Source: Naegleria gruberi
Lineage: Eukaryota
DNA: 64,000 nucleotides
Reading direction: 5' to 3' (one strand)
NCBI GenBank assembly: GCA_000004985.1
Contig: GG738852.1
Shown: positions 1,039-37,523 of the stretch, piece by piece
Layout of the letters: each line of letters starts with the position of its first letter
Numbering within the stretch: the stretch's first letter is position 1
Notes under the pieces: model-generated
Told to the model about the DNA's origin: nothing
What the model saw: the letters and a program-made list of their open reading frames with translations, nothing else
Database searches by the model: none
Program-made: the position numbers and the translations under genes

Positions 1039-2555
1039 ATGGACAGACAACCAGTAAGTTTTTTTAAAGATTTTCAGTCGGTACATACCAATCAAAATTA
1101 TTTATTAATCAAATACAGATTAGCGAATATCTTCAAAACAACAATCTCCAAAAGTTGGTAGAAGATGCTTTAAATGAATGCTACAATGCTAATGCTTCAG
1201 ATGTTCATTCCTTCCTCGGAAACTTCTTCTTGTCTCGTGGTAAGAAGTCATCTGGTCAAATTGATAAGATTGTTGGTAGAGAAATTTTGGACTCTAGAGG
1301 TAATCCAACTGTTGAAGTTGACGTTTATGTTAATGGTCAAAAGAGACCAATTGCCACTGCTTCTGCTCCATCTGGTGCTTCAACTGGTAGTAATGAAGCC
1401 CACGAACTTCGTGATGGTGATAAGTCAAGATTCCTCGGAAAGGGTGTTTTGAAGGCTGTTAAGAATGTTAATGAAACTCTCTCAAAGGCTGTTGAAGGTA
1501 AATCACTTGATAGTCTTGCTGAAGTTGATCAAGCTTTGATTGATGCTGATGGTGATGAATTGAAGAGCAATTTGGGTGGTAATTCCATTACTGCTGCTTC
1601 ATTTGCTCTTGCTACTGCTGGTGCTGCTGTTAAGAATGAAGAATTATTCTTGTATTTGGCCAATGCTTTCCACAATGGAAAGACTGAAGGTTTAAAGTAT
1701 CATCTTCCAACTCCTATGGTCAATATTTTGAATGGTGGTAAGCACGCTGGTGGTCGTCTTCAAATTCAAGAATTCATGATTTTGCCAAAGGAAAATCAAT
1801 CATTCCGTGAAAAGCTCAGATGTGTTGCTGAAGTTTATCAACATTTGGGTAAGATTCTCGTTGAAGCTGCTGGTCCAAGTGCTAAGAATGTTGGTGACGA
1901 AGGTGGTTTTGCTCCAAACTTGGAAACTGCTGATGAAGCTTTGAACTATATTGAACAAGCCATTGTTAAGGCTGGTTATAAGGTTGGTGAAGACGTCTTT
2001 TTGGCTTTGGATGCTGCTTCAAGCGAATTCTATGATTCTGAAACTAAAAAGTACGAAATTACTCAAGGAAAGGATTATTATACTTCCGAAGAAATGGTTG
2101 AATATTATGCCCAATTAGTCGAAAGACACCCTGCTATCGTTTCTATTGAAGATGGTTTGGAAGAAAAGGACTATGAAGGATGGAAGAAGTTGACCGAAAG
2201 ATTGGGCTCAAAGATCATGTTGGTTGGTGATGACTTGTACACTACTAACACCAGATTGATTAAGCAAGGTATTGAAGAAAAGTGGGCTAACTCTTTGTTG
2301 TTGAAGGTTAACCAAATTGGTTCTATCACTGAAGCTATGAATGCTGCTAGAATGATTTTCAATGTCAACCAAAAGGTCATTGTTTCCCACAGATCTGGTG
2401 AAACTGCCACTAATTTGATTGCTGATTTGGTTGTTGGTATTGGTGCTACTCACATTAAGACTGGTGCTACTGCTAGAGGTGAACGTGTTTCCAAGTACAA
2501 TAGATTGTTGCAAATTGAAGAATACCTCGAACAAAATGGTTTGCTCTCTCAATAA
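1039..2555 (+). CDS. ENO: Enolase (phosphopyruvate hydratase) with a ~50-aa N-terminal DPY-30/RIIa-like extension. Exons 1039..1053 and 1119..2555; 65-nt intron GTAAGT...ACAG.
   Basis: The translation carries canonical enolase blocks (SRGNPTVEVD, SGASTG.NEA, NILNGG.HAG, SHRSGETED-like tail). Codon use is strongly biased (GGT/GCT/TTG/AGA), typical of a highly expressed gene. Without the ATG exon the frame is open from 1068 with no in-frame ATG. Exon 1 (MDRQP) splices in phase 0 to ISEYLQ... Confidence 0.9.
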
Positions 2556-6432: not shown

Positions 6433-7296
6433 ATGAGTCAACATCAAGAAGCATACATTTGTGGAGAAGATTCTTGTCAAAGAACGACCACAACCAGCAG
6501 CAGCACATCAACAACCAATTCTGTAAATAATGAATCATCATCTGTTTTAAATGTAGAAATCATTTCGGATATTGCTTGTCCATTCTGTTTCCTTGGTAAA
6601 TTGCAATTGGAAAAAGCATTGGAACAATTAAATATTAAACCAATTGGATCCGATTCATCATCCGATTTAAAATATACCATTTATTGGAAACCATTCTTGT
6701 TGAATCCAAATGTACCAGCTGGAGGAATGTCACGTGATCAATTTTTCAAAATGAAATTTGGAATGAATTTGAGTGAAGATATGAAAAATGATCCAAAATT
6801 ATTACTCAAATCCATGCCAATGCTCAACCATATTGAAAATAGTGGATTGGAATTGGGAATTAAAACAATGAATGTTGCCAATATGAAAGTACCAATCAGT
6901 AATACATTAAATGGACACAGATTGATTCGATATGTTGAACAATTATATCCACATCAAACTTCTGATATGCAAAATAAGGTAGCTGATAGAGTTTTTAGAG
7001 CTTATTTTGAGGAAGGAAGGGATGTCTCTCAAGTTTCAGTTATGAATGATATTGTTAAGGATTTGAAATTACAAGATCAAATTTCTGAAACCTTCTTTTT
7101 GGAGGATGTTCATTCAGTCTCTGCCTACACAGATGAACAATTAAAAGCTGTCAAGGAAGAAGCCAAAAAAACACAACGTGTCACAAGTGGAGTTCCTTAT
7201 TTCACATTTACCCATGCTGGAAAAAAGACTTCAACTTCTGGAGCTATTGGTATTCAATCATTTGTTAAATTACTCAAAGCTTTCATCTCTAAATAA
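6433..7296 (+). CDS. DsbA/FrnE-like thioredoxin-fold oxidoreductase (the DSBA-like family that also contains kappa-GST).
   Basis: VEIISDIACPFCFLG has a CxxC motif in the position typical of DsbA-like proteins, and a C-terminal GVPYFTF resembles the cis-Pro loop region. ATG in an A-rich context (aaaaaaATGagt). Confidence 0.55.
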   Translation: MSQHQEAYICGEDSCQRTTTTSSSTSTTNSVNNESSSVLNVEIISDIACPFCFLGKLQLEKALEQLNIKPIGSDSSSDLKYTIYWKPFLLNPNVPAGGMSRDQFFKMKFGMNLSEDMKNDPKLLLKSMPMLNHIENSGLELGIKTMNVANMKVPISNTLNGHRLIRYVEQLYPHQTSDMQNKVADRVFRAYFEEGRDVSQVSVMNDIVKDLKLQDQISETFFLEDVHSVSAYTDEQLKAVKEEAKKTQRVTSGVPYFTFTHAGKKTSTSGAIGIQSFVKLLKAFISK

Positions 7297-7364
7297 ACCT
7301 ATAACGTTGTAAAAACACAAAAACTCTTTCTCAGTAAACTTCCAACTTGTTTTCAATTTCAGAA

Positions 7365-9089
7365 ATGATTCTGTCAAACATTTCGTTTACAAGTTCTAAA
7401 AAAATGTCATCACACCAATATAAACCATTCAAAAGTAAACTTGTAGAGGAGTACTCGTCGGAAGATTTCCAATCATCGTCTTTTAATGATGTTGGTATGG
7501 AATCAGGTACTCTCTTTCGTTATTTATGTTCATTAGCACATCGATCTCTCGGACTTGATACCATCCACAATTTGATGAAGAAGGGAGAGGATGAATTTCA
7601 TCTGTGGGAACATTGTGATTTAAATGATAGTTTTGATTCTCTGGTGTATGGTGCTTGTGATAGATTAATTAGTGTTCAATGCAGATTCAGAGATCAAGAT
7701 GTCGATTCAACTTATTATTTTCATCCGTTAGTAATTTGGCAAAGATGGCCAATGTTACTTGGATATGCACTCAATTCAGAATTGAAAGGAGAAATTAAAA
7801 GAGAGGAACTGGCTATTGTCACTGAAAATGATTTATTCCTTGCTACTTTAAATACAAACAAGCAAATTGAAAAGTATTTTGGAAGTATTAATGATAAAGT
7901 ATTGGATCAATTGGAATTTAGAAATCAAATTAGACAATTGAAACTTGAAATTGCAAAAGCAAAGAGTAATATTGAACAACATTCCTCAATATTTGTAAAG
8001 CATGAAAAGAAGATTCAAAATCTTCATGAATGTTTGAAACAATTTGATGAAACAGGTTTAAAATCTCTCCTTCTTCCAACAAGTCAATTGTGGAATATTC
8101 ATTTAGGAAATATTGATTTTCACAAACAAGCTTTCGATGAGATTGTCTTTTATTTATATACTTCAAAATTTGTTAATTTAGATAATGATCCAACTGAGAG
8201 CACACTCCTTCCACCTGTTAGATCATTAGAAGATTTAATATTAGGAAAGGATAAGGAATATTTCCAAGAAATATTAACCCTGTTGAACTCTCTTGGTATT
8301 CAACCAATCAATTCCCTTCTATATAAGGATTCAGCCTCTCTCAATAATTTTGAAAGTGAGAGTGAAATTAGAAAGGCAAAAATCTATGACACTCTCTTTG
8401 GAATGCTAAAGGAACAATTAGCTGATGGAATTTTCTTCACAACAACTCAACCACCAAATAATCCCTTGGAAACTCTCAAAAAATTTATGTGCAATTTAAT
8501 TATTGAGCAACAACCTCCAGAAGCTACTGATGATCATGTCGATGAATTTACTGAATTGCCAGAACACTCAGAGGAGCAAATTTTTGGACACAAATCATTC
8601 TTAATGAAACACTGTCCATTCATTGATGTTTTAATTAATAGTGATTTTCAAGAGGCATTCCAAATTAGAGAAACTGAATCAAAGAATGAAATACCGGTCA
8701 TACATGTAGAATGCTCCAACTTTCAAATATTGACAGATATTATTCGATACATTTATAGTAATAGAATTTCAATTAACAAGAGTAATGTATTTGAACTCTT
8801 GTTACTCTCTCAAAAATTAGGACTTGATGATTTAACTGAACTATGTGAAAAATCAGTTCCTGAGATGGATTTCTTTGATTTTGAATTGGTTCAAGTCATT
8901 TCCCTCACCATTTCACTTTCTCTTCCACATTTGAAAAATATTTTCGAGCAAAAGCTATTCTCACAATTAAAGACAATGATAAAAGGAAGATTAATGGGAT
9001 CTGATGAAGCTCAAGTAATTCTGGAACAATGTGGATATTCATTTGAAGAGGTCAATGACTTGCTGGTACAATTAATTTGGGCAGATTAA
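7365..9089 (+). CDS. BTB/POZ domain-containing protein.
   Basis: A C-terminal segment (IPVIHVECSNFQILTDIIRYIYSNRISINKSNVFELLLLSQKLGLDDLTELCEK) matches the BTB fold pattern. First ATG at 7365; the ORF track starts at TTG 7347. Confidence 0.4.
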   Translation: MILSNISFTSSKKMSSHQYKPFKSKLVEEYSSEDFQSSSFNDVGMESGTLFRYLCSLAHRSLGLDTIHNLMKKGEDEFHLWEHCDLNDSFDSLVYGACDRLISVQCRFRDQDVDSTYYFHPLVIWQRWPMLLGYALNSELKGEIKREELAIVTENDLFLATLNTNKQIEKYFGSINDKVLDQLEFRNQIRQLKLEIAKAKSNIEQHSSIFVKHEKKIQNLHECLKQFDETGLKSLLLPTSQLWNIHLGNIDFHKQAFDEIVFYLYTSKFVNLDNDPTESTLLPPVRSLEDLILGKDKEYFQEILTLLNSLGIQPINSLLYKDSASLNNFESESEIRKAKIYDTLFGMLKEQLADGIFFTTTQPPNNPLETLKKFMCNLIIEQQPPEATDDHVDEFTELPEHSEEQIFGHKSFLMKHCPFIDVLINSDFQEAFQIRETESKNEIPVIHVECSNFQILTDIIRYIYSNRISINKSNVFELLLLSQKLGLDDLTELCEKSVPEMDFFDFELVQVISLTISLSLPHLKNIFEQKLFSQLKTMIKGRLMGSDEAQVILEQCGYSFEEVNDLLVQLIWAD

Positions 9090-14410: not shown

Positions 14411-15325
14411 ATTACTCCCTCTTTTTAAAATTGATTACTTGATAATTATCTGTGTTAAAAATCCGAAAAGATTCTAATTTAATTATTATAATAATTTTAA
14501 ATCTTTTTTATAATAATTGATTAACTCGTCCGTGGTTACAATATTGAAGAGTAATCTATTAAACTATGTTACTAGCAATAATTAAATACAACTGTAGAAT
14601 AAAACATACTACAAGATCTAGAATTGTCTCGCTTTGCGTATAATAGTAATTTGAAATTACTGGAGAGTACCTAAAAGTAACATGCCAGCTTTCACACCAT
14701 AATCAAACTTTGTAATCCAAATACATCAGGAAAACTTGGCCCGATTGAACAATTATCTATTATTACTTTTAAATACTTTCATCTTTTCAATAAAAAGTGT
14801 CAGAAAAAGTGATTCTAACAAAAACATCATCCCTTCAACTAACACGTGTTTGACTCTCAACGTTGAGCTGCCAACACCATACATCCAATCGTTTTTTGTT
14901 TGCTTCCGTAACAAACCGAACTTTCAGTATTGTAATCACCTTGATTTGCGTCATTGGTTCCATTTCATTTCTTCATCCTTGCCTATTTTAAGTTTCACAG
15001 TTCACGTTACCAACTGTTGTGTGTAACAACAAACAGCTGTTTTACTCCCACCACGCATCAACAAACTCCTTTCTTGCCCTCTGCCTATTTTCTCTCTGAG
15101 GCAAAGTGTCTTTGAGGAGTGACTCAACGGTTAAGATAATTTTAATAACTACATTAGCTAAAAAAATTTTGCAAACAAGAGAGGTCCTGACCACGTTCAG
15201 TCTTTTTATTCCTCCTCATCCTCTTCCAACTATTTACTGTTGTTTATTAATCCAACCACTATTGATTGTTCAACTATTCTATCACTAGCACCAATAACAA
15301 CACTTGTGTACATACATTTAAAAAG

Positions 15326-17239
15326 ATGAGTTACGCCTCCCCAACAAATAACTTTGACTTTGAATCCCTCTTCTTAGAAGAAGAACAGGAAGTACCACTC
15401 AACTTTTATCAAAGTCCAACTGAAAGTTTATTATCAACTAGTAGCAGTGGTACCGATCATACCAATTCTTCTAATGAACAACAACAACAAATTACCTATG
15501 ATGTTATCAGTGATGGTTATGTTTTTGGTAACGACTTTGATATGAATGCTCAAAAGCAAAAGGGTTTAAAACAAGAAGATTTGGCTGCTGCTAATCCATT
15601 CTATAATCAAACTAATACTCCAAATGCTAATAATCAATTCTCCTCACTTAATCCACTGAATAACTTTATGTATAATCAAAACCAAAAACCAGGTTTTATG
15701 GGATATCAAAATCCACAATTGATGGGACAACTTGGAATGTACTTCCCACACACCTTCCCTAATGTATTCCCACAATTCGGTAATCAACCATTCCCATTCC
15801 CAAACAATAATCTTATCTATACATCACCAAATACATCACCAATTGGTCTTGCAACAAGTCCAAACTCGAATAATAGTAATGGTGTTACACCTTCATCGAA
15901 TACATCAAATAGTACAACTGCTACTACTACTTCAGCAGCCACTACACAACCAGCTGAATCTAAAACAAAGGCCTCCAGAAGAAAATCAGCAAAGAAGAAT
16001 ACTAAATCAACAACAACCACAGCAACTACTACAACAACTACTTCTTCAACAACATCCAAGAATGAAGAAACAACTACAACAACTAGTCCTTCTACAACCA
16101 CTTCAGATGAACAAAAATCGACAAAGGCCTCTACACCAGAACCAACAGACTCTGATAACTCTAATCAATCCTCTGAAAAGGAAGAAATTGACTCTTCTTC
16201 ATCTTCATCTGAAAAGAAATCTGAAGAAAAGAAGAGAAAGAGAAAATCCAAGAAGGATGGTAAAGATGGTAAAGCTTTGACTCCTGAAGAAGAAAAGGAA
16301 TTAAAGAGACAACGTCGTCTCATCAAGAATCGTGAGTCTGCTCAAGCTTCTAGAGAACGTAAAAAGATTTATATTCAAGGTCTGGAAAAGAAGGTTGATG
16401 GTCTTGCCCAAGAATTCAATGAATTACAAGGACACGTTGTATCTTTGGAAGAAGAAAATGAAATTCTCAGACAACGTTTAAAGATGCTAGGTGAACATGT
16501 TGAAGAACCAAGCAATAAGAAGAGAAAGATGGCTCCAATGACATCTTCTGGACAAATGAAGGTACCAATTCCAATGGATTCCAGATCATTTGCCAATCCA
16601 TTCATGTTAGATTTTTGGAGTCTCTTTGGTATGCAACAACAATTGCAACAAACACAACAAGCTGCTCCTGACATGGCTCAACTCAATCCAAGAGCTGCCT
16701 CATCATCTAGAAGAGTTGTCATGTTTATTATGTTGTTCTGTGTTGCTATGTTTTTGGTTTTACCACATTCTTCTGATATCAAGTTTGATAGTCAAACTAC
16801 TACTACTACAACAACTGAACAAACTGAATCTGTTACTAGTAGATTGAGTCCAGCTTCCAGAAAGCTTGCATCAACAGATCAAAAGGATACAATGGTAGAT
16901 GTTTCTATAGATGCGTCCCAAAAACCGTTTGTTGATGAGGACTTTAAGAAGAATGTTGCTGAAATTTATCAAACATTCCAACAAGTCAGATCTGAAGCTT
17001 CTGAAAATTCTGAAGAATCTGAAAAGCCAACTATTGATGATTTGGCTTCCCGTATCAATGTTGTTTTTGATACTGACAAGATTTCTCTCTCCTTCCCAAA
17101 GTCTATTTTGGTTAAGAAGGAAGAAGAATCTGATGAAATGGTAGATGAAGAACAATTCTCCAACTCAACCTACGATGAAAAGATGTCCTCACTTTCTACT
17201 AAACTTTTGAAGGAAATTTGTCGTGTTGTCAACCATTAA
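15326..17239 (+). CDS. Membrane-tethered bZIP transcription factor (ATF6/CREB3-like architecture).
   Basis: Basic region and leucine zipper at ~16295-16500 (KRQRRLIKNRESAQASRERKKIYIQGLEKKV...LEEENEILRQRLKML). A hydrophobic TM segment (VVMFIMLFCVAMFLVLP, ~16716-16766) follows, then a luminal tail. The N-terminal part is Q/N/T-rich. ATG at 15326 in context aaaaagATG. Confidence 0.7.
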   Translation: MSYASPTNNFDFESLFLEEEQEVPLNFYQSPTESLLSTSSSGTDHTNSSNEQQQQITYDVISDGYVFGNDFDMNAQKQKGLKQEDLAAANPFYNQTNTPNANNQFSSLNPLNNFMYNQNQKPGFMGYQNPQLMGQLGMYFPHTFPNVFPQFGNQPFPFPNNNLIYTSPNTSPIGLATSPNSNNSNGVTPSSNTSNSTTATTTSAATTQPAESKTKASRRKSAKKNTKSTTTTATTTTTTSSTTSKNEETTTTTSPSTTTSDEQKSTKASTPEPTDSDNSNQSSEKEEIDSSSSSSEKKSEEKKRKRKSKKDGKDGKALTPEEEKELKRQRRLIKNRESAQASRERKKIYIQGLEKKVDGLAQEFNELQGHVVSLEEENEILRQRLKMLGEHVEEPSNKKRKMAPMTSSGQMKVPIPMDSRSFANPFMLDFWSLFGMQQQLQQTQQAAPDMAQLNPRAASSSRRVVMFIMLFCVAMFLVLPHSSDIKFDSQTTTTTTTEQTESVTSRLSPASRKLASTDQKDTMVDVSIDASQKPFVDEDFKKNVAEIYQTFQQVRSEASENSEESEKPTIDDLASRINVVFDTDKISLSFPKSILVKKEEESDEMVDEEQFSNSTYDEKMSSLSTKLLKEICRVVNH

Positions 17240-17452: not shown

Positions 17453-18682
17453 ATGCTTTCAAAAACACTTTTCAACAGAAAGTCAGCATCAGTCTTTCAA
17501 CAATACACCAAGTCTTCATTATCCCAAAGACTCTTTTCCACCACTACTAATTTATGCAATAATAACACATCATCAATTAATAGAGTTGTTTTTTCGGGAA
17601 TTCAACCAACAGGAAATCTTCACCTCGGAAATTATTTAGGAGCTGTTAAAAATTGGGTTACATTATGTAATGATGATAACATTCAACAAATTGAAACCCT
17701 GATCCATCCAAAGGATAAGGAAACACAAAAACCATCAACAATTCCACTCGATGGAAGTGGTCCATTATTTCACAAGAAATTCTTTTGTGTTGTTGATTTA
17801 CATGCCATCACAGTTCCTCAAGATCCTAAAACCCTCAAAGAGTCATCATTTAATTTAATTGCCATGTTGCTTGCCTGTGGATTAGATCCTAAAAAGTGTT
17901 CACTCTTTTTCCAATCTCAAATTCCAGCTCACTCTCAACTTTCTTGGATTCTTGGATGTTTTATTACAGAAAATAGATTAAAGAGAATGCATCACTATAA
18001 GGATAAAAAGAATGATCTCAGTTCAATTGGTTTAGTGAGTTATCCTGTATTAATGAGTGCTGATATTTTACTGTATAGTTTAAAGGGAAATGAATTGTAC
18101 ATTCCAGTTGGTGACGATCAAAGACAACATTTGGAATTGGCACAAGAAGTTGCTCAACAAATGAATTTCAAATTTGATGGATTGTTTGATGTTCCTAGAG
18201 GAATTTATCCACCTCATGCCTATCGTGTTATGAGTTTGAGAGATGGCACTAAAAAGATGAGTAAGAGTGATACAAGTGACATGTCTAGAATTAATTTAGT
18301 TGATGAAGATGATGTCATTCTTCAAAAGATTAAGAAGGCCAAGACTGACACATTGGATGGGCCTATTTACTATAATAAGGATACAAGACCTGAGGTTACA
18401 AATTTGATAGATATTTATGCAGCATTGAGAGGAATGACAGCAGAACAAGTTGTTCAATCCTATTCCCACATTACTGAACAAGCTAATTCTAAATTCAAAA
18501 AGGAATTGGCAGAGGTTGTTATCGAATCTATTAGGCCAATCAGAGAAAATTACAAACACTACTTGAATAACCCGGAATTCATTCATCAAGTTGTTCAAGA
18601 TGGTGCTGATTATGCTAATCATGTAACACAAGTGGCACTTCGTGAAATTATGGACCAAGTAGGATTCTACAAGAAACCTTAA
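17453..18682 (+). CDS. WARS2: Tryptophanyl-tRNA synthetase, mitochondrial type (bacterial-like class I).
   Basis: GIQPTGNLHLGNYLG carries the HIGH-class signature typical of TrpRS. KMSKS is present (KKMSKSD, ~18252). The N-terminal presequence is S/T/R-rich. A-rich start context. Confidence 0.8.
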   Translation: MLSKTLFNRKSASVFQQYTKSSLSQRLFSTTTNLCNNNTSSINRVVFSGIQPTGNLHLGNYLGAVKNWVTLCNDDNIQQIETLIHPKDKETQKPSTIPLDGSGPLFHKKFFCVVDLHAITVPQDPKTLKESSFNLIAMLLACGLDPKKCSLFFQSQIPAHSQLSWILGCFITENRLKRMHHYKDKKNDLSSIGLVSYPVLMSADILLYSLKGNELYIPVGDDQRQHLELAQEVAQQMNFKFDGLFDVPRGIYPPHAYRVMSLRDGTKKMSKSDTSDMSRINLVDEDDVILQKIKKAKTDTLDGPIYYNKDTRPEVTNLIDIYAALRGMTAEQVVQSYSHITEQANSKFKKELAEVVIESIRPIRENYKHYLNNPEFIHQVVQDGADYANHVTQVALREIMDQVGFYKKP

Positions 18683-19082: not shown

Positions 19083-21561
19083 CTAAACAAACCTATTAGA
19101 TTCAAATTTTTGAAATAAAATACTTACCGTAGCAAGATAAAAGAATAAATGAATATTACTCTTGTTTCCAACAGATAAATGCTTGATCAGCTCGGTACAA
19201 CAATGTTTTACAATAAACTCCATTTGGAATTGATGAGAAATGAAGAGAATACAAATCCATTCATTTAGGTCATACTCTTCAAATTTACCATAACACATTT
19301 CCAAGACAATTCTTAGAATTTCACATCTAGATTTTTTGCAATGCTCGAAAAACATCTCATTCAAATTGTCTGACATCATTAAAATAAACTCGAGCAAATT
19401 AATGGTGGAATCTTCTGATAGATTGGATATCATTGTTGAAAGAACTGGGCTGTTCACAGCTAGGACACATTTGTGAAGATTCATAACTTGCTCAGAGTTG
19501 GAATCAATAATTACCTTCAAATCACTAGATGTATCTTCTATTAAGGTGACCAAAGATTGTTCCAAATTCATTAAGATATTGTCTTCCTTCCATTGAACCT
19601 GAACAGCAAAGAATGTCTTTTTAGTTTGATCTATTTTTGGTTTGATTTTCAAAAAGGAATCCAATGATCCATACCTATTGTGACATTCATTATAGTTGGC
19701 CTTAATAAAAGCAAAACATTTCTTGACAAGTAGGAGCAAGATACTAGTTTCTGAATTTTTTAAAACTTTCCATGATAGATAATTGGAGGTCCATGTAAGA
19801 ATATCCATTACATTCTCAACAGTTATTCTGTTTGCTAACTCATTGAATAAAAATGTCTTGAAATAAATTCCAACATCTGAAATGTCATTAAGTATAAATA
19901 AACAAGTGACTAAATCCTTTTCAATATTTTCTTCAGATAATTTGGATAAGAATCTATCGAAATAAATGAATAATCTGTCAGAGTATGATTCTTCCTCTTT
20001 TGTTGTATTGGATGTTGCCTCATTTGATTGAAAATTGTTGGTGAATTCTTCCTCAGTCGCCAAAGATAGCTCACAACTGATAAATTTACAAATTCTAAAT
20101 AAAATTTCGCCTTCTTCAGCTTTAAGCCTCTCAGTAAACTCTCTATTGATAAGTAACGAATGCAAATCTTTGGATATCCTTTTGATTAAAGGTAAAAAGA
20201 CATGAATCTTTGAATTTTCTACATGGAAGAATTGACTACAGTCTCTCAATTCATCGATAAGCATTACGGTATTGGTTGCAATTAATTCTTGAGTGGATAG
20301 TAATGGAGTTTCATGCATTACAAGAGTACTATTATTGCCACATATTACTCTCACATCCTCTCCTTCCTTCCATTCAAAAGGTAGATTGATAAGTTGTGGC
20401 TCCCTAAATGAGACAGTCTTTGAGTTCTTACCAAGCTCTCCAAATCGATTAGAGCCAAATGCATATAATTTTCTGCTAGATGTTTTTAAAATCACATGAT
20501 AGGGCCCACTCCAAACATCATCAATATATTCATCATTGAGAGGAATTTTCTCAAATGGGTAAACCTGCTCACGTGTTCCAATACCCAATAAGGTTCCAGC
20601 TCCACTCACAAAGCATTCTCCATTCGAATGAAGAGAAATGATATTTGACTTTCCCAGAACTATCTTTTTGACACCCTCTGCAACCAATTGAGCTGCTGGT
20701 TTTACATAACATGGATCATGTTGAGGTCTATTATTGGCATATTCAACTATCATATAATCTGAATTCGAAAAGGTGGCCTTTTGTCCTTTTTCTAGAAAAA
20801 CACTTCGAGTTTCTCCTCCAACAATATCATCTGCTATTGGAAAGGATCTAGAAGTGTGTAGACATAAATTACAGAAAATGCTTGTTGGTGTATTGACTTG
20901 AAAAGTCATCTTAAAATCACCGTCATCAATGAGGAAACATTGTTCAATATTATTATTTCCACATGCATAAACGGTTGTCTTTTCAGAAACAAAAAAGGAT
21001 TGGGAAGGGCCTGTGAAAATCTTTCTAATTGGTGAATCAAACAAGCTCTGTAATATTTCCACAGGTTTGTTGCATTCCTTTCTCAAAGGATTACCCAATT
21101 GACCTGTACTATTACTTCCACATGAAAAAACTCTTCCCAACCTGGACAAGAATAAGGCATGTTTCTCTCCGAGTCTAATCTGTACAATCTGATCATCATT
21201 ATTTAAATCCTCAAATTCTATTGGGGTGGGAATTTGTCGTGAGTCTAAATCTCCTACACCCAGCCATCCACAATCATTTCGTGTTCCGAGAGTGTACACC
21301 TTACCACTTTTTGTTAGGAAACAACAAAATTCATACGAGTAGGTGGAAGTTATTTCAAATTGTATGATCGGATCATGGAAGGAATAATATTCTAGAAAAT
21401 CAATTTTTGAAAAGGTTGATTGATCTGGTTGCTATATTATAGATTTTAATGTACATTATACATTGCTATTAACGTACTATATCCTTTGTCCATGGAAGGG
21501 CAGACAATGTCGACCAAAAACCTTGTCCACATCCATAAAATGTTTGTTTGGTTTCTGTCAT
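19083..21561 (-). CDS. RCC1-repeat plus BTB-domain protein (RCBTB-like). Exon 1 is 21561 (or 21576)..21478, then a 46-nt intron (GTACGT...TATAG), exon 2 is 21431..19083.
   Basis: The big ORF has no in-frame ATG; its frame is open to 21431. An upstream mini-exon (MTETKQTFYGCGQGFWSTLSALPWTKDI) starts RCC1 blade 1 and splices in phase 0 to QPDQSTF... There are multiple RCC1 blades (CGSNSTGQLG...). A BTB-like C-terminal region runs VMNLHKCVLAVNSPVLSTMI...LEFILMMSDNL. Confidence 0.6.
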
Positions 21562-28991: not shown

Positions 28992-30137
28992 ATGAATACA
29001 AAACTCACTTCACACTTGCCACATTTGATAAAACACAATTTTCCGAGTGTAAAGTATGCCTTTGCCTATGGATCGGCAGTCTTTAAACAAAAAGGGAATG
29101 AGGCACTTCATGAAGATTTTGATAAATTACACGACACTAAAATTATTGATGTGTCCAAGCCTGGTGAGGAGGAGAAGGCTGTAGTTCCGATTGTTGTGGA
29201 TAGGAAAAAGATGATGGTAGATATGGTGCTTGCTGTGAGTGATTCGTATGAATTTCACAAACAGAATTTATTATTAAATCCAGAGCATTATTCAGTGTTG
29301 ATGAGGATTTTGGGACCGAGAGTGATTACATTGCTACAGGAAAAGTTTGGAGCTAGAATTTATTATAATACAATGGTGGATTTGGATGATATTCATACTG
29401 GTGTTAGGTCACCATTTTTGTTTAAATATGGAGTTATAAAGGCACAACATTTAATTAAAGATTTGAATAATTGGGAAACTTTGTATGTGTCTGGAAGATT
29501 GCAAAAACCAACCTTTACAATTGATACAATTGATGAGAATGTTAGATCACTGCCAGGACATGTGGATACATGGCATCAAAATATCTGTCTAGCTCAGGAA
29601 CACAATTTGGAGCATGCCTTATTTACTGCATTGAAAATTATTTTATCTGAAAATCAATTGACAAATGGAACAGATCAAGAACAGGATATCAAAATTAATT
29701 TATTCGATTTATTTGTAATGATTGCCTCGCTATCCTATCAAGGAGATGTTAGAATGAAAATCAAGGGAGCAGAAAATAAGAATAAGGTGACTAATATTGT
29801 CACAACAAATTATGAACATTTTATAGAACTGTACGAACCAATTATGGAAAAGAGTAAATTATCGATCAAATTGGATCCAGATACTAAACAAAGTTATGTG
29901 AATATTACCAAATCAGATGTGGAGAAGGTTCGTGGTAGAGATCTACCTTTGAATGTTCAACAACAGCTCAGTAATCAATCAAAGATTACTGCTGATAGCA
30001 TCCAACAAGCTATTGCCAAGATTGTTTCCTCATCTAGTACATCACAAACTCTGAAGGGTTTAATTTCGGCTGGTCCTGTAAAGAGCTTTCACTATGTTTT
30101 GGAAAAATTGAAAAAAGGATTAAAGAGCCACAAGTAG
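28992..30137 (+). CDS. TAMM41: TAM41/MMP37-like mitochondrial phosphatidate cytidylyltransferase.
   Basis: N-terminal FAYGSAVFKQ matches the Mmp37 family YGSGV motif region. Length (~380 aa) fits the family. A-rich start. Confidence 0.5.
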   Translation: MNTKLTSHLPHLIKHNFPSVKYAFAYGSAVFKQKGNEALHEDFDKLHDTKIIDVSKPGEEEKAVVPIVVDRKKMMVDMVLAVSDSYEFHKQNLLLNPEHYSVLMRILGPRVITLLQEKFGARIYYNTMVDLDDIHTGVRSPFLFKYGVIKAQHLIKDLNNWETLYVSGRLQKPTFTIDTIDENVRSLPGHVDTWHQNICLAQEHNLEHALFTALKIILSENQLTNGTDQEQDIKINLFDLFVMIASLSYQGDVRMKIKGAENKNKVTNIVTTNYEHFIELYEPIMEKSKLSIKLDPDTKQSYVNITKSDVEKVRGRDLPLNVQQQLSNQSKITADSIQQAIAKIVSSSSTSQTLKGLISAGPVKSFHYVLEKLKKGLKSHK

Positions 30138-31888: not shown

Positions 31889-34306
31889 ATGAATTTAGCA
31901 GCTAATCTTGTGAGTACCTCCACTGCAGCAGTTGCTGCTGGCTCACAGAGACAATCACTGCCCTCCGTAGGAGCAAGTGTTGGTGCTGGTGATTCTGTGC
32001 AGCCACACCAGCAACAATATCATTTAAACACAACTGCAGGAAGTAGAAAATCAGAACATTTGGATGATACGGAGAGGGATGCCTTGTCTGCTGATGAAGA
32101 TGTCTTTCCAACATTTCGATCAGTAATTATGGGAATGGAGGAGGGGAATGATTTGGAGAGAGCTCCATCTTCCTCACAACATCATTATAGAGATGGATTT
32201 GGAAGGAATGATGATGAGGATCATGATTTCAAACTGGGTCACAGTTGGGAAACTAATAAGTGGTTGAGGTGAGTTTACTTGTTTGGAATTTTTAGTTTAA
32301 ATTGGTGAATTTACAGAATTGGAGTTGTTGTAACGTTTAGTTTGATGGCAATTCTTCTTTTTGCCTTTCTCATTGTAATAATTACATTAGCGAGTCGATC
32401 TGTGCCAACTAATGGAAATAATGTTATCAATAATTCAACATCTTGGGAACCACCAGTTACAGAATCTGGTATTGTAAATTTGATTAGAGCAACAAATGGT
32501 GCAACAGCTGCAGACAATGAAATTTGCTCAAATATTGGAGTGAAAATAATGAGAGATTATGGGGGAAATGCTGTGGATGCAGCAATTGCGACAAGTTTTT
32601 GTATTGGAATTATGAATCCTTTCAGTGCAGGAATAGGAGGTATGTTTCTCAATTCATTTTCGAAAGTTGAAATATTTTCACATCAATAATACTTGGATGA
32701 ATCAGGAGGAGGAATTATGGCAATTTCCAAACCAAGCACAAATGGAGAATCGATTGTGGAATATATTGACTATAGAGAAACAGCACCCTCTGGAGCATCT
32801 TGGGATATGTTTTCAAATATGCAACCAGTTGACGGAGCACCTCCTTCTCAGAGAGGTGGAAAAAGTATTGCTGTTCTATCAGAAGTGAAAGGTCTTTATA
32901 CTGCCTGGCAAAGGCATGGCTCTATTAGTTGGAATTTACTCGTTGAACCATCAATAGAGTTGGCTAGAAATGGAGTAAAGGCTAATGCAGTGATAGCTGG
33001 TCATTTACAAAAATACAAGAATTGGGTTGTCAGGGAATCATTTGGTTCAGGAATGAAACAAGTTTATGGAACAGCTGATGGAGATGTTAAAAAAGAGAAT
33101 GATTTATTGGTCTATCCTAAACTTGCCCAAACTTTGGAACAAATTGCTATTTATGGAGCTAATGCGTTGTATAGCTTGAATGGCTCTCTGATTCAAGATT
33201 TATTATCAGATTTACAACAAGCTGGAAGTATCGTTACAATGGACGATTTACTCAATTATCAAGTTAAAATTTATTCAACTCTTAACACCAACGAAGAGCA
33301 GCAACCTCTTTCAACCTACTTTATGGGCTACAAGGTATTTGGTCCACGACCAGTAATATCAGGCGGCTCTTGTATCATTTTCATGTTGAACATGTTGGAA
33401 AATTTTGTTGGAGAATTATACTCTTCTGCAATGAACAGTGAAAAGGGAGAATATGAGAGGGGAGAGGAATTTCATCTCTCACAGAAAAAGTATGCTCTCT
33501 TTGTGGAGGCACTCAAGTACGCATTTGCACATAGAGGTGACTTGGCAGATCCCGACTTTATTGACATTAAGGATGTTCTTGGAAAAATGACAAGCAAAGA
33601 TTATAGCTCAAAATTGAGAAATGAATTGGAAAAGGCTCTGAGCAATAATTTAACATTCTCTGATCCTCTTCATTACAAATATCAGAAAGATTCAGGATTT
33701 GTCAGAGATGATCACGGAACTTCTCATCTCAGTGTGTTGGATAAGAATGGAATGGCTGTCTCTGCTACCACAACAGTCAACCTGATTTTTGGAAGTTTTA
33801 TTATTGGTGAGAGGACTGGAATTATATTTAATGATCAAATGGATGACTTTTCCCTTCCAAACACCACCAATTATTTTGGACTGGCTCCTTCACCAAGTAA
33901 TTATATTGCAGCAGGTAAGAGGCCACTCAGCTCCATGTCTCCAATGATTATCCACAAGAATAATCAAATCTATCTTACCATTGGTGCCAGTGGTGGCTCC
34001 AGAATTATATCTTCAGTATTTCAAACTATTTGGAATCATATTGTTGGTGGTTTGGATATTGCCAAGGCGATTCAGTTCCCAAGAATTCACCATCAATGGA
34101 GCCCTGACTCACTCGCAATTGAGCAAGGTATTCCTGATGACCTAGTATCATTTTTGAAGAATTATGTTAATGGAGGATCCATTAGTAGAGTTCAAGGTAA
34201 TCCTGAATTCAGTGTTGGAATAGTTCAAGGAATAGTTAAAAAGGGAGCTAATGAAATTGAGGCGGCTTCAGATATTAGAAAAAAGAGTAAAGCTGCAGGG
34301 TATTAA
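31889..34306 (+). CDS. GGT: Gamma-glutamyltranspeptidase (type II membrane, three exons): 31889..32268, a 48-nt intron (GTGAGT...TTACAG), 32317..32639, a 66-nt intron (GTATGT...AATCAG), 32706..34306.
   Basis: Exon 1 encodes a cytoplasmic tail. Exon 2 starts with the TM anchor (IGVVVTFSLMAILLFAFLIVIITLA). The exon 2/3 junction gives GIGGGGGIMAI, matching GGT AGIGGGGFM. GGT small-subunit motifs TSHLSVLDKNGMAVSATTTVNLIFGS and GSR are present. Confidence 0.8.
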
Positions 34307-34377: not shown

Positions 34378-37300
34378 ATGAAAAGAAATGTAAATAAACC
34401 ACCACTCAAATCATCTCGAGGAAGTTCATTAGATATTGCCATAAGGAAGGGATTATATGGAATGTAGGTGTTGTTCTTTGTGATGAAAGATTAATTTGGA
34501 TAATTTTATCAAATAATTAACTGCACGGAACGAATAATACTATTTTATATTTAAATGGAAGAACTTTGGAACAATTACAAGAGTTTAATGATAATCATGA
34601 TGTTTATAAATTACAAAACGAATATGGAGGAGCCCACGGGTTGGCACAAGCTCTCGGATCAAATATTAAAGAGGGAATTAGTAATTATGAAGTTCAGGAA
34701 AGAGGATTTCATTTCGGAAAACATTTTAGTTTGCAACGAGTGAGTCCAACACGATATAATTCATGGTTCCGATTATTTATTATTACATTTAAGGATTCTT
34801 TCATGAAAACCTTCTTAATTTTGGCAATAATTTCAATCATTCTGGGAGTTATTCTGCCCACAGAACAAAAAGAGAGAAGAAAGGGTTGGATAGAGGGTGT
34901 CTCGCTTCTGATTGGGTGTCTCTTTGTTTGTGTGGCGAATAGTTTTATTGGCTGGCAAAAAAAGAGAAAGTGGAATGAGATTCACACCTTACAAGATGCT
35001 CAATACAGAGTAAAGGTAACACGTGATGGAAAAATTACATCCATTCTTATGGAAAATTTAGTGGTTGGTGACATACTTCATGTAGAACCTGGTGATTTTG
35101 TTACATGTTCTGGAATAGTTGTTGATTCACATAATTTAATTTGTGATGAAAGCTTTTTTACTGCCAACGATACTAACTCACTCAAAGATAAGAATTTGAA
35201 TCCTTTTATTGATCCAGAAACGTTTATTGTAGAAGGTTATGGTAGCATTCTTGTCACTTCAGTAGGAGTTAAACAAATCCTTTTGGATGCTTTACTGAAT
35301 TCTAAAGATGAGGAGTCTTCCTCTCCTTTGGAAACTCGTCTTTTCTCCATAGCTAATAATATTTGGAAAATAGCTATTGGCTTTTCATTGAGTGTTTTTG
35401 CACTCTTGATGGTTGGGTGGACCATTTATAAGATTGGACTCATACAAAACTATCAGGAGGAATGGATTGTTACTGATCTATTGACAGTTCTCAAAATGAT
35501 ATGTTTATGTTTTTCTGTACTCTTTGTTTGTACTCCGAATGGAATTTACAAGATAATTACCACTTCAATGGCCTACTCTTCACGTAAAACTATAAGAGAC
35601 AATATCCTTCTGAGTGTGAACCAGAATATGGATGTGAGTGAAAGGTTGGGATATACTTCACAAGTGATTATTGGAAAGTCGGCCCTTACACAAAAATCAA
35701 TGGAAGTTGTCAAAGCGATCATTGCAGGTGAAAATATTGAAATTGGCACAGGAGATGTTCAAATTGATGAAACTCTTTTACAAATTTTATCGAGTGCCTT
35801 ATCTGTGAATTCGAGGGCTGATATTAGAAATGATGATAATATGCAAATAGAGGAGAGTATTGGGGATTCTTTAGACTGTTCCCTATTGATTTTTCTTCAA
35901 CAAATTGGAGTAGATTATGCACCTATAAGAAACTATTATTTTGAGAATAACAAAATTGTAAAAATGTTTACAAAGAAAAATGGAACCATGACAACTATTG
36001 TGAGGAATAATGGAAATTATATTCTATTTACCAAAGGATGTTATGAATCCATTCTTGAAAATTCATCTGGAGAATTGTTGAAAGAAGGAGTTGTTGCTTC
36101 ATTCACTGATAACAGAAAAGAAGAGCTCCGAGAAACTATGAGCAAACACATTCAAGAAGGATATACAATAATTGCAATAGCTTACAGAGAAATTGAAGAC
36201 ACAAACATTCTCTTTGAGAATAATTTAACCATTGATGACGACTGCTACAGTAATTTAGTATTAATATCATTCCTGATTATTCTTAACCCATTAACCACAG
36301 GAATTAAGGAATCCATATCTCAATTGAGAGACGCTGGTATTTTTGTGAGGTTGGTTACTGGAGAAAGTGTTTCATCCGCAAAGAGACTTGCAACTGAATG
36401 TGGAATTATGACTGAAGATGGTACATGTCTAGAAGGCCCTTCGTTTTTCAATCTGAACGAAGATGAGCTCATTAAAACTCTTCCTAATCTGCAAGTGGTT
36501 GCCAGAGCAAATAATGCACACAAGTACCATCTCATTTCTGAATTACAGAAACAGGGGGAGTTTGTCACCATCCTCTCTTCATCTCACAAAGATGTCCCCT
36601 CCATAAGAAAAGCAGATATTGGAGCTGTTTGTGGAATTAAAGGATCACATTGGAGCAAATACTACGCCGATTTGTTTATTACAGATGATAGACTGAGTTC
36701 TCTTGTGAGAGCCATCGCTTGGGGAAGAGCTTTGTTTTACAATATTCAAAAGTATCTAGTTTTTCACATGACTATCAATATTGTAGTCATGACATTGACT
36801 GCAGTTACCTCTATAACTGCCTATCTTTTGAGCCCAGTTCAGTTTCCACCCTTCAATCCAGTCCAATTGTTATTTGTACATATTATCATGGACATTTTTG
36901 CAGCTCTTTCTCTGGCTTCTGATCCTCCTCATAAGGAAACTATGAAACAAGATCCAATCAAACCCAAATCAAGTATTGTAAGAAAGAATATGAAATTTCA
37001 CATTGTTGGTCAAATTCTCTATCAGTTAGTGGTATTGATGATTTTGCACTATAGTGGAATTTATATTTGTATCAACAATAAGGATGGCGACAAGTTGTGT
37101 CTGAGTGATCCTGGAACCTCCTTCAAATCATCCAAATCATCCCAAGTTGTGGAAACAATGGTATTCAATACTTTCATATTTTGTCAAATATTTAATGAGA
37201 TTAATTGTAGAAGAATTGATAATGGGATGAATCTATTGAAGAATATTCACCATTCATTATTATTTGTGGCAATCTTCATTCTTAATATTGCATTTCAAGT

Positions 37301-37523
37301 ATTCTTAGTTCAGTTGAGTTTGGCAAGTTTAGTGCCATTGACTTGGTACCAGTGGTTAGTTTGTGTTGCCATTGGTTTTATTTGCGTACCTTTTGGTTAT
37401 GTGTTACGATTTTTATCTTCAAGAATAATTACATCAAACAAATTGAAAAAGGGAATGAACAAGATATTTAAAAGAATGGTTCGTAGTGTGCCTAGTCGAA
37501 ATCATAACCTTAACATCACATGA
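34378..37523 (+). CDS. PMCA-type (P2B) P-type ATPase homolog lacking catalytic residues (pseudo-ATPase). Exons 34378..34463 and 34562..37523; 98-nt intron GTAGGT...GGAAG.
   Basis: The splice junction yields ...KGLYG|I|TLEQLQEF..NEYGGAHGLAQALGSNIKEGIS, matching the PMCA N-terminus (FGITLAELR..YGDVYGICTKL..EGLS). TM domains align with the PMCA family throughout. The 3' region (VTGESVSSAKRLATECGIM; IVRAIAWGRALFYNIQKYLVFHMTINIV; LLFVHIIMDIFAALSLASDPP) resembles PMCA. The phospho-Asp motif SDKTGTLT is replaced by IGKSALTQ. The actuator TGES is replaced by TAND. GDGTNDGPAL is replaced by SSHKDVPSI. Confidence 0.7.

What the first reader, a model, noticed from the sequence alone, without database searches (positions are those of the whole stretch)
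1039..1260. Enolase carries an N-terminal DPY-30/RIIa-like dimerisation-docking extension
Canonical enolases start about 5 residues before SRGNPTVEV. This one has about 50 extra residues (ISEYLQNNNLQKLVEDALNECYNANASDVHSFLGNFF). The spacing YL..L..L....L......P.D...FL..YF fits the DPY-30/RIIalpha docking helix pair. Such modules tether proteins to axonemal or other scaffolds. Together with DNAI1 in the same window, this suggests a glycolytic enzyme targeted to the flagellum, giving local ATP supply. It is a fused targeting module rather than a separate adaptor.
Basis: partly seen in the sequence, partly recalled or inferred. Interest (0 to 1): 0.5.

Follow-up and report, generated by a model that had tools for sequence, protein, structure and literature searches.

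The report
Enolase with PKA-type docking domain
This amoeboflagellate's (Naegleria) glycolytic enzyme enolase really does start with a small two-helix "dimerise-and-dock" module of the kind that anchors protein kinase A and several flagellar enzymes; this enolase fusion is already catalogued in other protists and algae, so it is a new member of a known kind.

Summary
A two-exon gene (1039-1053, 65-nt intron, 1119-2555) encodes a 483-aa enolase. Its first 52 residues precede the Pfam Enolase_N domain and cannot be skipped, because the next in-frame ATG is codon 205.

The extension is a real docking/dimerisation (D/D) domain of the RIIa/Dpy-30 clan:
- The sequence alone scores only weakly against Pfam RIIa (E 0.04-0.09).
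- A profile of 19 enolase-attached extensions hits the PKA RI-alpha D/D domain at E=4.4e-7. It also hits AK7, RI-beta and DPY30.
- An AlphaFold model gives a short helix followed by a helix-turn-helix. Its best PDB match is RI-alpha D/D (TM 0.73-0.75).

The domain is homologous to the N-terminus of Chlamydomonas enolase, a subunit of the C1b projection of the flagellar central apparatus (PDB 7N6G/7SQC).

This is not new as a class. Dahlin et al. 2021 list "enolase" as an R1D2-type D/D protein outside animals. It is unrecognised in Naegleria: the N. fowleri enolase paper calls this region disordered, and its crystallised construct starts inside the domain.

Docking to the flagellum is inferred by orthology and was not tested here. 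DNAI1 is present 55 kb away, but that says nothing about enolase.

The parts
1039..1053 (+). Exon 1 of the enolase gene: ATG plus 4 codons (MDRQP).
   Evidence: The context is AACCATGG, with an in-frame stop upstream at 1009 and no upstream ATG. Residues Q4-P5 already align to the family profile.
1054..1118 (+). Intron of 65 nt (GTAAGT...ACAG).
   Evidence: Read directly from the sequence. Unspliced, the exon 2 frame has a stop at 1065-1067. Splicing joins ATG 1039 in frame to exon 2. The splice is inferred; no transcript data were available.
1119..1250 (+). D/D (docking/dimerisation) domain, residues 6-49. It has a flanking helix at residues 7-12 (1122-1139), helix I at 16-29 (1149-1190), a loop at 30-33 (1191-1202) and helix II at 34-49 (1203-1250).
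   Evidence: AlphaFold model with pLDDT 78.6; the same helices appear in the full-length model. The best Foldseek match is PKA RI-alpha D/D, 3im4_B, TM 0.73-0.75. The family profile hits RI-alpha D/D at E=4.4e-7. Pfam RIIa E=0.04-0.09.
1251..1259 (+). Short linker (residues 50-52) between helix II and the first enolase strand.
   Evidence: Residues 48-52 are 1/5 identical to N. fowleri, against 27/32 for the D/D domain and 385/429 for the core. pLDDT dips here in the full-length model.
1260..1658 (+). Enolase N-terminal domain (residues 53-185).
   Evidence: Pfam PF03952, E=3.3e-46.
1698..2537 (+). Enolase C-terminal TIM-barrel domain (residues 199-478). The catalytic and metal motifs are intact: IQEFMI, VGDEGGFAPN, LALDAASSE, SIEDGL, LVGDDL, LLKVNQIG, SHRSGET, IKTG.
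   Evidence: Pfam PF00113, E=3e-108. The alignment to E. coli and N. fowleri enolase shows the motifs conserved.
2553..2555 (+). Stop codon (TAA).

Best explanation
The gene encodes the glycolytic enolase of a Naegleria species. [quoted passage not shown]

Proposed mechanism, by analogy with PKA RI-alpha, DPY30, AK7 and NDK5:
1. Two copies of the domain pair into an X-type four-helix bundle. Enolase is already a homodimer.
2. The hydrophobic groove of the bundle clamps an amphipathic helix of an anchoring protein.
3. When the amoeba turns into a flagellate, this docks part of the cell's enolase onto the C1b projection of the central apparatus. That is where the Chlamydomonas orthologue sits, next to adenylate and guanylate kinase domains, and it would support local ATP regeneration.
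4. The rest of the enzyme remains the cytosolic housekeeping enolase.

Shown here: the domain exists, is obligatorily translated, is homologous to RI-alpha/Dpy-30 D/D domains and to the Chlamydomonas enolase N-terminus, and is conserved.

Inferred: dimerisation of the domain, binding of an amphipathic helix, the identity of the anchor, and flagellar localisation in Naegleria.
For: Gene model and obligatory translation:
- There is no in-frame ATG between residue 1 and residue 205.

Organism and enzyme:
- The protein is 89% identical to the N. fowleri enolase crystal structure 7UGH. That enzyme is catalytically active and is encoded by a single gene.

Homology to D/D domains:
- The profile of 19 enolase-attached extensions hits PKA RI-alpha D/D at E=4.4e-7 over the whole domain. 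It also hits AK7 (6.5e-4), RI-beta (3e-3) and Chlamydomonas DPY30 (0.011).
- In the per-member Pfam scan, the three families matched by most members are Dpy-30, RIIa and Tex55.
- Of the 30 Foldseek matches to the AlphaFold model, all but two (a bunyavirus polymerase and a Leishmania dehydrogenase) are PKA or DPY-30 D/D structures or short chains of axonemal complexes; the best is RI-alpha at probability 0.99.

Family membership:
- Leave-out profiles score the window sequence 45 and 34 bits.
- 481 proteins match the extension profile in a library of 1.84 billion proteins, including green algae and Rhizaria.

Link to the flagellum:
- The Chlamydomonas enolase chain in the central-apparatus structures aligns with this protein from residue 6.
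- In 7SQC that chain is modelled over 476 of 477 residues. It aligns with the full-length model here over 484 columns with TMq 0.87, against 0.80-0.83 for core-only matches.
- Enolase is a C1b subunit organised by CPC1.
- Loss of C1b lowers beat frequency, which is attributed to lower flagellar ATP.

Constraint:
- The D/D domain is 84% identical between the two Naegleria species, the linker 20% and the core 90%.

From my own memory of Banky et al. 1998, not checked here:
- RI-alpha F47 and F52 are needed for dimerisation. They align with F37 and F42 of this protein.
- The docking residues V20 and I25 align with L10 and L15.
Against: - No experiment or structure shows that this domain dimerises or binds a helix in any enolase. 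I could not read the 7SQC coordinates or the paper that describes them.
- The window sequence alone does not reach the Pfam thresholds.
- It lacks both prolines of the R1D2 PxxP loop.
- Land-plant ENO3/ENOc reportedly keeps the extension although the plant has no flagella, so the domain's role cannot be purely flagellar.
- In Chlamydomonas, enolase is also found elsewhere in the flagellum.
- In mouse sperm, C1b contains no enolase.
- The AlphaFold monomer packs the domain close to the core. An intramolecular role is therefore not excluded.
Confidence: 0.6

Rival explanations
1. The domain is a genuine D/D module, but in Naegleria it mainly serves a non-flagellar purpose. It might dock enolase on a cytosolic or cytoskeletal scaffold, link enolase dimers into higher-order assemblies, or regulate activity.
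For: - There is a single enolase gene in N. fowleri, so the same protein works in amoebae that have no flagella.
- Arabidopsis ENOc reportedly retains the extension without flagella.
- Polle et al. speculated about a role in oligomerisation or regulation.
- The loop prolines typical of R1D2 domains are lost here, which could mean altered specificity.
Against: - The only located orthologue is in the axonemal C1b projection.
- The named extension-bearing enolases found here come from groups that, to my knowledge, have flagellated stages: green algae, chlorarachniophytes, plasmodiophorids and Naegleria.
- D/D proteins outside PKA are predominantly ciliary.
Confidence: 0.25
2. The extension is a vestigial remnant with no current function in Naegleria.
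For: Both conserved loop prolines are replaced (A31, V34), and the sequence alone is below the Pfam thresholds.
Against: - The D/D domain is 84% identical to N. fowleri, while the adjacent linker is 20% identical.
- All core hydrophobic positions and the invariant Y and N of the family are kept.
- The fold is predicted with confidence.
Confidence: 0.06
3. The extension is a disordered N-terminal tail or an organelle-targeting peptide.
For: [quoted passage not shown] In 7UGH, the part of the region that was retained is not modelled: 434-436 of 477 residues are built.
Against: - The crystallised construct starts at QKLVEDAL, inside the domain, so disorder there is expected.
- The AlphaFold model has three helices with pLDDT up to 92.
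- Homology to D/D domains is significant.
- The composition (6 acidic and 5 basic residues, no hydrophobic run) is unlike a presequence or a signal peptide (read from the sequence).
Confidence: 0.03
4. The extension is a gene-model artefact: the true protein starts downstream or uses another first exon, so it is not made.
For: - The splice is inferred and no RNA data were available.
- N. fowleri annotations disagree about the 5' end, with models of 485, 512 and 662 aa.
Against: - There is no in-frame ATG in exon 2 before codon 205, which lies inside the catalytic domain.
- The open frame runs through the whole domain with the same strong codon bias as the core.
- The 485-aa N. fowleri model matches this one in length.
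- Relatives such as P0137 and the Chlamydomonas enolase start within a few residues of the same point.
Confidence: 0.02

Closest known systems
Enolase as an R1D2-type PKA-R-like D/D protein (Dahlin et al. 2021, J Biol Chem, PMC8339350; their example is Micromonas commoda)
   Same: The architecture is the same: an N-terminal D/D domain fused to enolase in non-metazoan eukaryotes. Both have the RI-like flanking helix with an aromatic plus a hydrophobic residue (here Y9-L10).
   Different: - The window protein lacks the PxxP loop that the paper uses as the R1D2 hallmark.
- Naegleria is not mentioned in the paper's text or in the one supplementary file held as text.
- The text I searched has no sentence assigning a function to the enolase D/D domain.
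Chlamydomonas reinhardtii enolase, a subunit of the C1b projection of the central apparatus (PDB 7N6G and 7SQC; Han et al. 2022)
   Same: The N-terminal domain is homologous: it aligns from residue 6, and the family profile scores it 66.6 bits. The full-length folds align over 484 columns. In green algae, as in N. fowleri, a single enolase gene is reported.
   Different: - Overall identity is only 45%.
- The Naegleria catalytic core scores higher against bacterial enolases than against the Chlamydomonas one.
- The Chlamydomonas domain has the PxxP loop (KPEEP).
- Localisation is known for Chlamydomonas and unknown for Naegleria.
PKA RI-alpha docking/dimerisation domain (PDB 2EZW, 3IM4)
   Same: It is the best structural and profile match, with the same three-helix layout. 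About 27% of residues are identical, including Y, the FL of helix II and a second F.
   Different: - The RI-alpha disulphide cysteines (C16, C37) are not at the same positions.
- It is attached to a metabolic enzyme and not to cAMP-binding domains.
- The partner is unknown.
Axonemal enzymes that carry Dpy-30/RIIa-clan domains: adenylate kinase 7 and NDK5/RSP23
   Same: The logic is the same: a nucleotide-metabolism enzyme fused to a D/D module that sits in an axonemal complex. Both are hit by the enolase-extension profile (AK7 E=6.5e-4, NDK5 E=0.5-0.8).
   Different: They belong to the Dpy-30 subtype, the domain is C-terminal, and they are dedicated ciliary proteins and not the cell's housekeeping enzyme.
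Naegleria fowleri enolase (NfENO, PDB 7UGH; Milanes et al. 2024, PMC11321563)
   Same: It is the orthologue: 89% identical overall, with the D/D region 27/32 identical.
   Different: - That paper describes the region as disordered.
- The crystallised construct (44-512) begins at helix I and so lacks the flanking helix.
- The retained part is not modelled in the crystal.
- N. fowleri keeps the second loop proline (SDPVGF); the window species has SDVHSF.

Membership tests
RIIa/Dpy-30 clan D/D domain (Pfam PF02197 / PF05186) | Sequence match to the curated profiles at or above the gathering score. | tested here: inconclusive
   The window sequence alone gives RIIa as the top hit but below threshold: 12.9-14 bits against 22.4, E 0.04-0.09. 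Homologous extensions do pass: P0002 scores Dpy-30 25.1 bits against 22. The enolase-only family profile hits RI-alpha D/D at E=4.4e-7.
RIIa/Dpy-30 clan D/D domain | A helix-turn-helix of about 40 residues that can form an X-type four-helix bundle. | tested here: met
   The AlphaFold model has helices at residues 16-29 and 34-49 plus a flanking helix at 7-12. Its best PDB match is RI-alpha D/D, TM 0.73-0.75 and rmsd 1.8 over 43 columns. All but two of the other 29 matches are PKA or DPY-30 D/D structures or short chains of axonemal complexes. Only the monomer fold was tested, not the bundle.
RIIa/Dpy-30 clan D/D domain | Homodimerisation (or heterodimerisation) of the domain. | not testable with these tools
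   Only monomer prediction was available. The residues that align with RI-alpha F47 and F52 are F37 and F42; their role in dimerisation is recalled from memory.
RIIa/Dpy-30 clan D/D domain | Binding of an amphipathic helix of an anchoring protein in the groove of the dimer. | not testable with these tools
   No partner sequence or coordinates were available. The answer may lie in 7SQC, where the Chlamydomonas domain is modelled.
R1D2 (RI-like) subclass, as defined by Dahlin et al. 2021 | A flanking N-terminal helix with consecutive aromatic and hydrophobic residues. | tested here: met
   Residues S7-N12 are predicted helical and contain Y9-L10. Y is invariant in the family alignment.
R1D2 (RI-like) subclass, as defined by Dahlin et al. 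2021 | [quoted passage not shown] | tested here: not met
   The window has A31-S-D-V34. N. fowleri has A-S-D-P. At least 90% of the 19 aligned extensions keep the second P, and many have both. The family as a whole meets the feature; this member does not.
Enolase (phosphopyruvate hydratase, EC 4.2.1.11) | Enolase_N and Enolase_C domains with the catalytic and metal-binding residues. | tested here: met
   PF03952 E=3.3e-46 and PF00113 E=3e-108. The catalytic motifs are conserved in the alignment to E. coli enolase. The core is 90% identical to N. fowleri enolase, which has measured activity.
Central-apparatus C1b enolase (Chlamydomonas type) | Physical presence in the C1b projection of a 9+2 axoneme. 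| not testable with these tools
   Only the homology of the N-terminal domain and of the whole chain to the 7N6G/7SQC enolase was shown. The organism encodes DNAI1.

The most novel reading that the evidence does not exclude
The D/D-enolase fusion may be an ancestral eukaryotic device, found here in three different kinds of enolase core:
- the canonical eukaryotic core of green algae;
- a bacterial-like core in Naegleria and its metagenomic relatives;
- highly divergent, possibly inactive enolase-like proteins in Rhizaria.

In Naegleria the single housekeeping enolase would then be partitioned on demand. It would be free in amoebae and captured by a central-apparatus anchor within the hour-long switch to the flagellate form. 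The degenerate, proline-less loop might reflect a changed or additional non-axonemal partner.

The domain would also be a parasite-specific handle, absent from human ENO1-3, on a validated N. fowleri drug target.
Probability: 0.25. Interest if true: 0.6.

Novelty: new member of a known kind. Interest (0 to 1): 0.35.

Why it matters
It links two bodies of literature. One is a catalogue entry stating that enolase carries a PKA-like D/D domain outside animals. The other is the structural finding that enolase is a built-in subunit of the flagellar central apparatus. Together they suggest how a glycolytic enzyme is anchored next to nucleotide kinases to feed dynein motors.

For Naegleria it corrects the view that the N-terminus of the N. 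fowleri enolase drug target is disordered. It also shows that the crystallised construct began inside a folded domain. That may help in designing a soluble full-length protein, and the domain is a feature that human enolases lack.

It is not a new kind of system.

Tried and rejected
Searches that failed or were unavailable:
- The word-index protein search with the 60-residue extension found nothing. With a 5-sequence alignment it found only three green-algal first exons. That database appears to lack Naegleria proteins.
It was redone with the exon 2 translation.
- The afdb50 fold library was not installed, so named AlphaFold-database enolases, including ENO4, could not be checked.
- These papers are not held: Mitchell et al. 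2005, Gui et al. 2022 (7SQC) and Nakamura et al. 2013 on ENO4.
- Literature searches for enolase with RIIa, or with 'dimerization and docking', found nothing.

Explanations rejected:
- Transit or signal peptide: the composition is wrong and the region is predicted helical.
- Downstream translation start: there is no in-frame ATG before codon 205.
- A second enolase or a second domain of this type in the window: none was found by tblastn or by a six-frame profile search.
- DNAI1 linkage as functional evidence: the 55 kb between the two genes holds unrelated genes.

Full report
**What is there**

The window is AT-rich eukaryotic DNA (34.5% G+C). On the + strand an ATG at 1039 lies in the context AACCATGG, with an in-frame stop upstream at 1009. 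Five codons (MDRQP) follow, and then a 65-nt intron, 1054-1118, with GTAAGT...ACAG ends. Removing the intron joins the ATG in frame to a long open frame, 1119-2555.

The spliced product is 483 aa. Pfam places Enolase_N at residues 53-185 (E=3.3e-46) and Enolase_C at 199-478 (E=3e-108).

Exon 2 has no in-frame ATG before protein residue 205. The extension therefore cannot be bypassed by a downstream start. The splice itself is inferred; no transcript data were available.

**Organism**

The protein is 89% identical to PDB 7UGH (413 of 466 aligned positions). 7UGH is the Naegleria fowleri enolase. The window is therefore from a Naegleria species other than the crystallised strain.

An orthologue of axonemal dynein intermediate chain DNAI1 lies at 57811-59667 on the - strand (E=1e-138). 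This fits an amoeboflagellate. The 55 kb between it and enolase carries unrelated genes, so the linkage says nothing about enolase.

**Is the extension a D/D domain?**

Alone, residues 1-60 give Pfam RIIa as the top hit, but below threshold: 12.9-14 bits against a cutoff of 22.4, E 0.04-0.09. A single-sequence search of PDB aligns residues 8-47 with the PKA RI-alpha D/D domain at a non-significant E=1.3. Neither result is conclusive alone.

I therefore collected homologues. A profile of five extensions, searched against 1.84 billion representative proteins, found 481 matches at E<=1e-3. They include:
- many green-algal first exons that end at a conserved intron after '...SFM';
- full-length enolases such as P0137, which is 62% identical to the window protein;
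- divergent enolase-like proteins of Rhizaria: Amorphochlora, Plasmodiophora and Spongospora.

Profiles built without the window sequence score it 45.1 bits. With its two nearest relatives also removed, the score is 34.0 bits. So it belongs to this family.

A profile of 19 extensions, all attached to enolase, was then searched against all PDB sequences. Besides the two enolases, it hit:

| Target | E-value |
|---|---|
| PKA RI-alpha D/D (positions 6-45 of 50) | 4.4e-7 |
| Adenylate kinase 7, Dpy-30 domain | 6.5e-4 |
| PKA RI-beta | 3e-3 |
| Chlamydomonas DPY30 | 0.011 |
| Human DPY30 and NDK5 | weaker |

Scanned one by one against Pfam, the families matched by most members are Dpy-30 (best 9.5e-6), RIIa (best 2.2e-4) and Tex55. 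To my knowledge Tex55 carries an RIIa-like end.

An AlphaFold model of the exon 2 N-terminus has mean pLDDT 78.6, rising to 92 in the core. It has a short helix at residues 7-12, helix I at 16-29 and helix II at 34-49. The best of its 30 Foldseek matches in PDB is RI-alpha D/D (3im4_B, probability 0.99, TM 0.73-0.75). All but two of the other 29 matches are DPY-30 or PKA D/D structures or short chains of axonemal complexes. Each E-value is weak because the domain is short; the agreement among them is what counts.

Homology to the RIIa/Dpy-30 clan is therefore established at the family level. The domain is closer to the RI type.

**Constraint**

Between the window species and N. fowleri, the D/D region is 27/32 identical, the linker 1/5 and the core 385/429. 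This is the pattern expected of a folded domain on a short free tether.

The family alignment has an invariant Y (Y9) and N (N24), and a nearly invariant loop proline. The window sequence has replaced that proline with V34.

**What it probably does**

The Chlamydomonas enolase chain in the cryo-EM structures of the central apparatus (7N6G, 7SQC) carries the same N-terminal domain. It aligns with the window protein from residue 6, and the family profile scores it 66.6 bits.

Enolase there is a subunit of the C1b projection. C1b is organised by the 'rachis' protein CPC1, together with FAP42, FAP246 and HSP70A. Han et al. describe this cluster as one of nucleotide-metabolising domains. Loss of C1b lowers beat frequency, which is attributed to lower flagellar ATP.

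In 7SQC the enolase chain is modelled over 476 of 477 residues. It aligns with the full-length model here over 484 columns at TMq 0.87, against 0.80-0.83 for matches that cover the core only. So the domain is ordered in the axoneme.

By analogy with RI-alpha, DPY30, AK7 and NDK5, I propose the following. Two copies of the domain pair, and the groove of the pair binds an amphipathic helix of a C1b protein. This docks part of the enolase pool in the flagellum. Dimerisation, helix binding, the identity of the partner and localisation in Naegleria are all inferred.

There are three caveats. First, N. fowleri has one enolase gene, so this is the housekeeping enzyme of amoebae that have no flagella. 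Second, Arabidopsis ENOc reportedly keeps the extension without flagella. Third, mouse sperm C1b lacks enolase. A non-flagellar docking or regulatory role is the main rival.

**Comparison with what is known**

Dahlin et al. 2021 classify the D/D superfamily. They list enolase among the PKA-R-like proteins found outside metazoa and place it in the RI-like R1D2 group. [quoted passage not shown] So the class is known.

Polle et al. 2014 had noted a conserved extension of about 45 residues in green-algal enolases, without identifying it.

In the text of Dahlin et al. that I searched, Naegleria is not mentioned. [quoted passage not shown] It used a construct (44-512) that starts at QKLVEDAL, at helix I, which removes the flanking helix. 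The retained remnant is not modelled in the crystal: 434-436 of 477 residues are built.

Of the two R1D2 hallmarks given by Dahlin et al., the flanking aromatic-hydrophobic helix is present (Y9-L10). The PxxP loop is not (A31...V34).

**Verdict**

The flagellar role is plausible by orthology but untested. This is a new member of a known kind, of moderate interest.

Noticed in passing
window 1260-2552 (enolase core): The catalytic core scores higher against bacterial enolases in PDB (E. coli 404-409 bits, B. subtilis 398) than against eukaryotic ones (Chlamydomonas 391 including the D/D domain, human ENO2 363, T. brucei 359, yeast 349). Euglena enolases are reported to cluster with bacterial ones. 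The window protein shares the motif APSGASTGSNEA with N. fowleri and with the metagenomic D/D-enolases P0137, P0199, P0002 and P0204. This looks like a eukaryotic docking domain on a bacterial-like core. No phylogeny was done.
   Followed up: partly
window 57811-59667 (- strand): A WD40 open reading frame of 618 aa is an orthologue of axonemal outer-arm dynein intermediate chain DNAI1/IC78 (E=1e-138 to mammalian DNAI1, 2e-130 to Chlamydomonas IC78). The ORF probably lacks the N-terminal exon or exons, since the match starts at target residue ~150-180.
   Followed up: yes
proteins P0262, P0191, P0265, P0169 and P0166: Enolase-like proteins of Rhizaria (Amorphochlora, Plasmodiophora, Spongospora), and two metagenomic relatives, carry the same D/D extension. 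Their enolase domains are weak (Enolase_N 57-76 bits or absent), and the SRGNPT motif is degenerate (for example SSSGAPT). They may be non-catalytic, ENO4-like paralogues. Whether vertebrate ENO4 keeps a related N-terminus, contrary to 'metazoans lost the D/D on enolase', could not be tested.
   Followed up: partly
proteins P0126, P0130 and P0261: Small non-enolase proteins contain two tandem copies of a domain that the enolase-extension profile recognises. P0261 also passes the Pfam Dpy-30 threshold at 27 bits. They could in principle pair with the enolase domain.
   Followed up: no
green-algal hits P0121-P0271: Scores of green-algal gene fragments end at exactly the same place, '...EP(L/I/M)SFM', followed by read-through. 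This indicates a conserved intron inside helix II of the D/D domain in green algae. The Naegleria intron lies elsewhere, after codon 5.
   Followed up: no
window 1039-2555 compared with the N. fowleri annotations: The published N. fowleri gene models give 485, 512 and 662 aa. The clean 5-codon first exon and 65-nt intron seen here agree with the 485-aa model. This suggests the longer models are 5' mis-annotations. It may also explain why the 'full-length' protein failed to express.
   Followed up: partly
window 6433-51270: Other genes recognised in passing: a DSBA-like thioredoxin (6433-7296), BTB proteins (7347-9089, and 19083-21299 with RCC1 repeats), a bZIP factor (15266-17239), a class I Tyr/Trp-tRNA synthetase (17453-18682), Tam41 (28992-30137), gamma-glutamyltranspeptidase (32693-34306), a P-type cation ATPase (34566-37523), FANCI (37594-41724), a Rap1 C-terminal domain protein (45560-46690) and a second large WD40 protein (60786-63398).
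   Followed up: no
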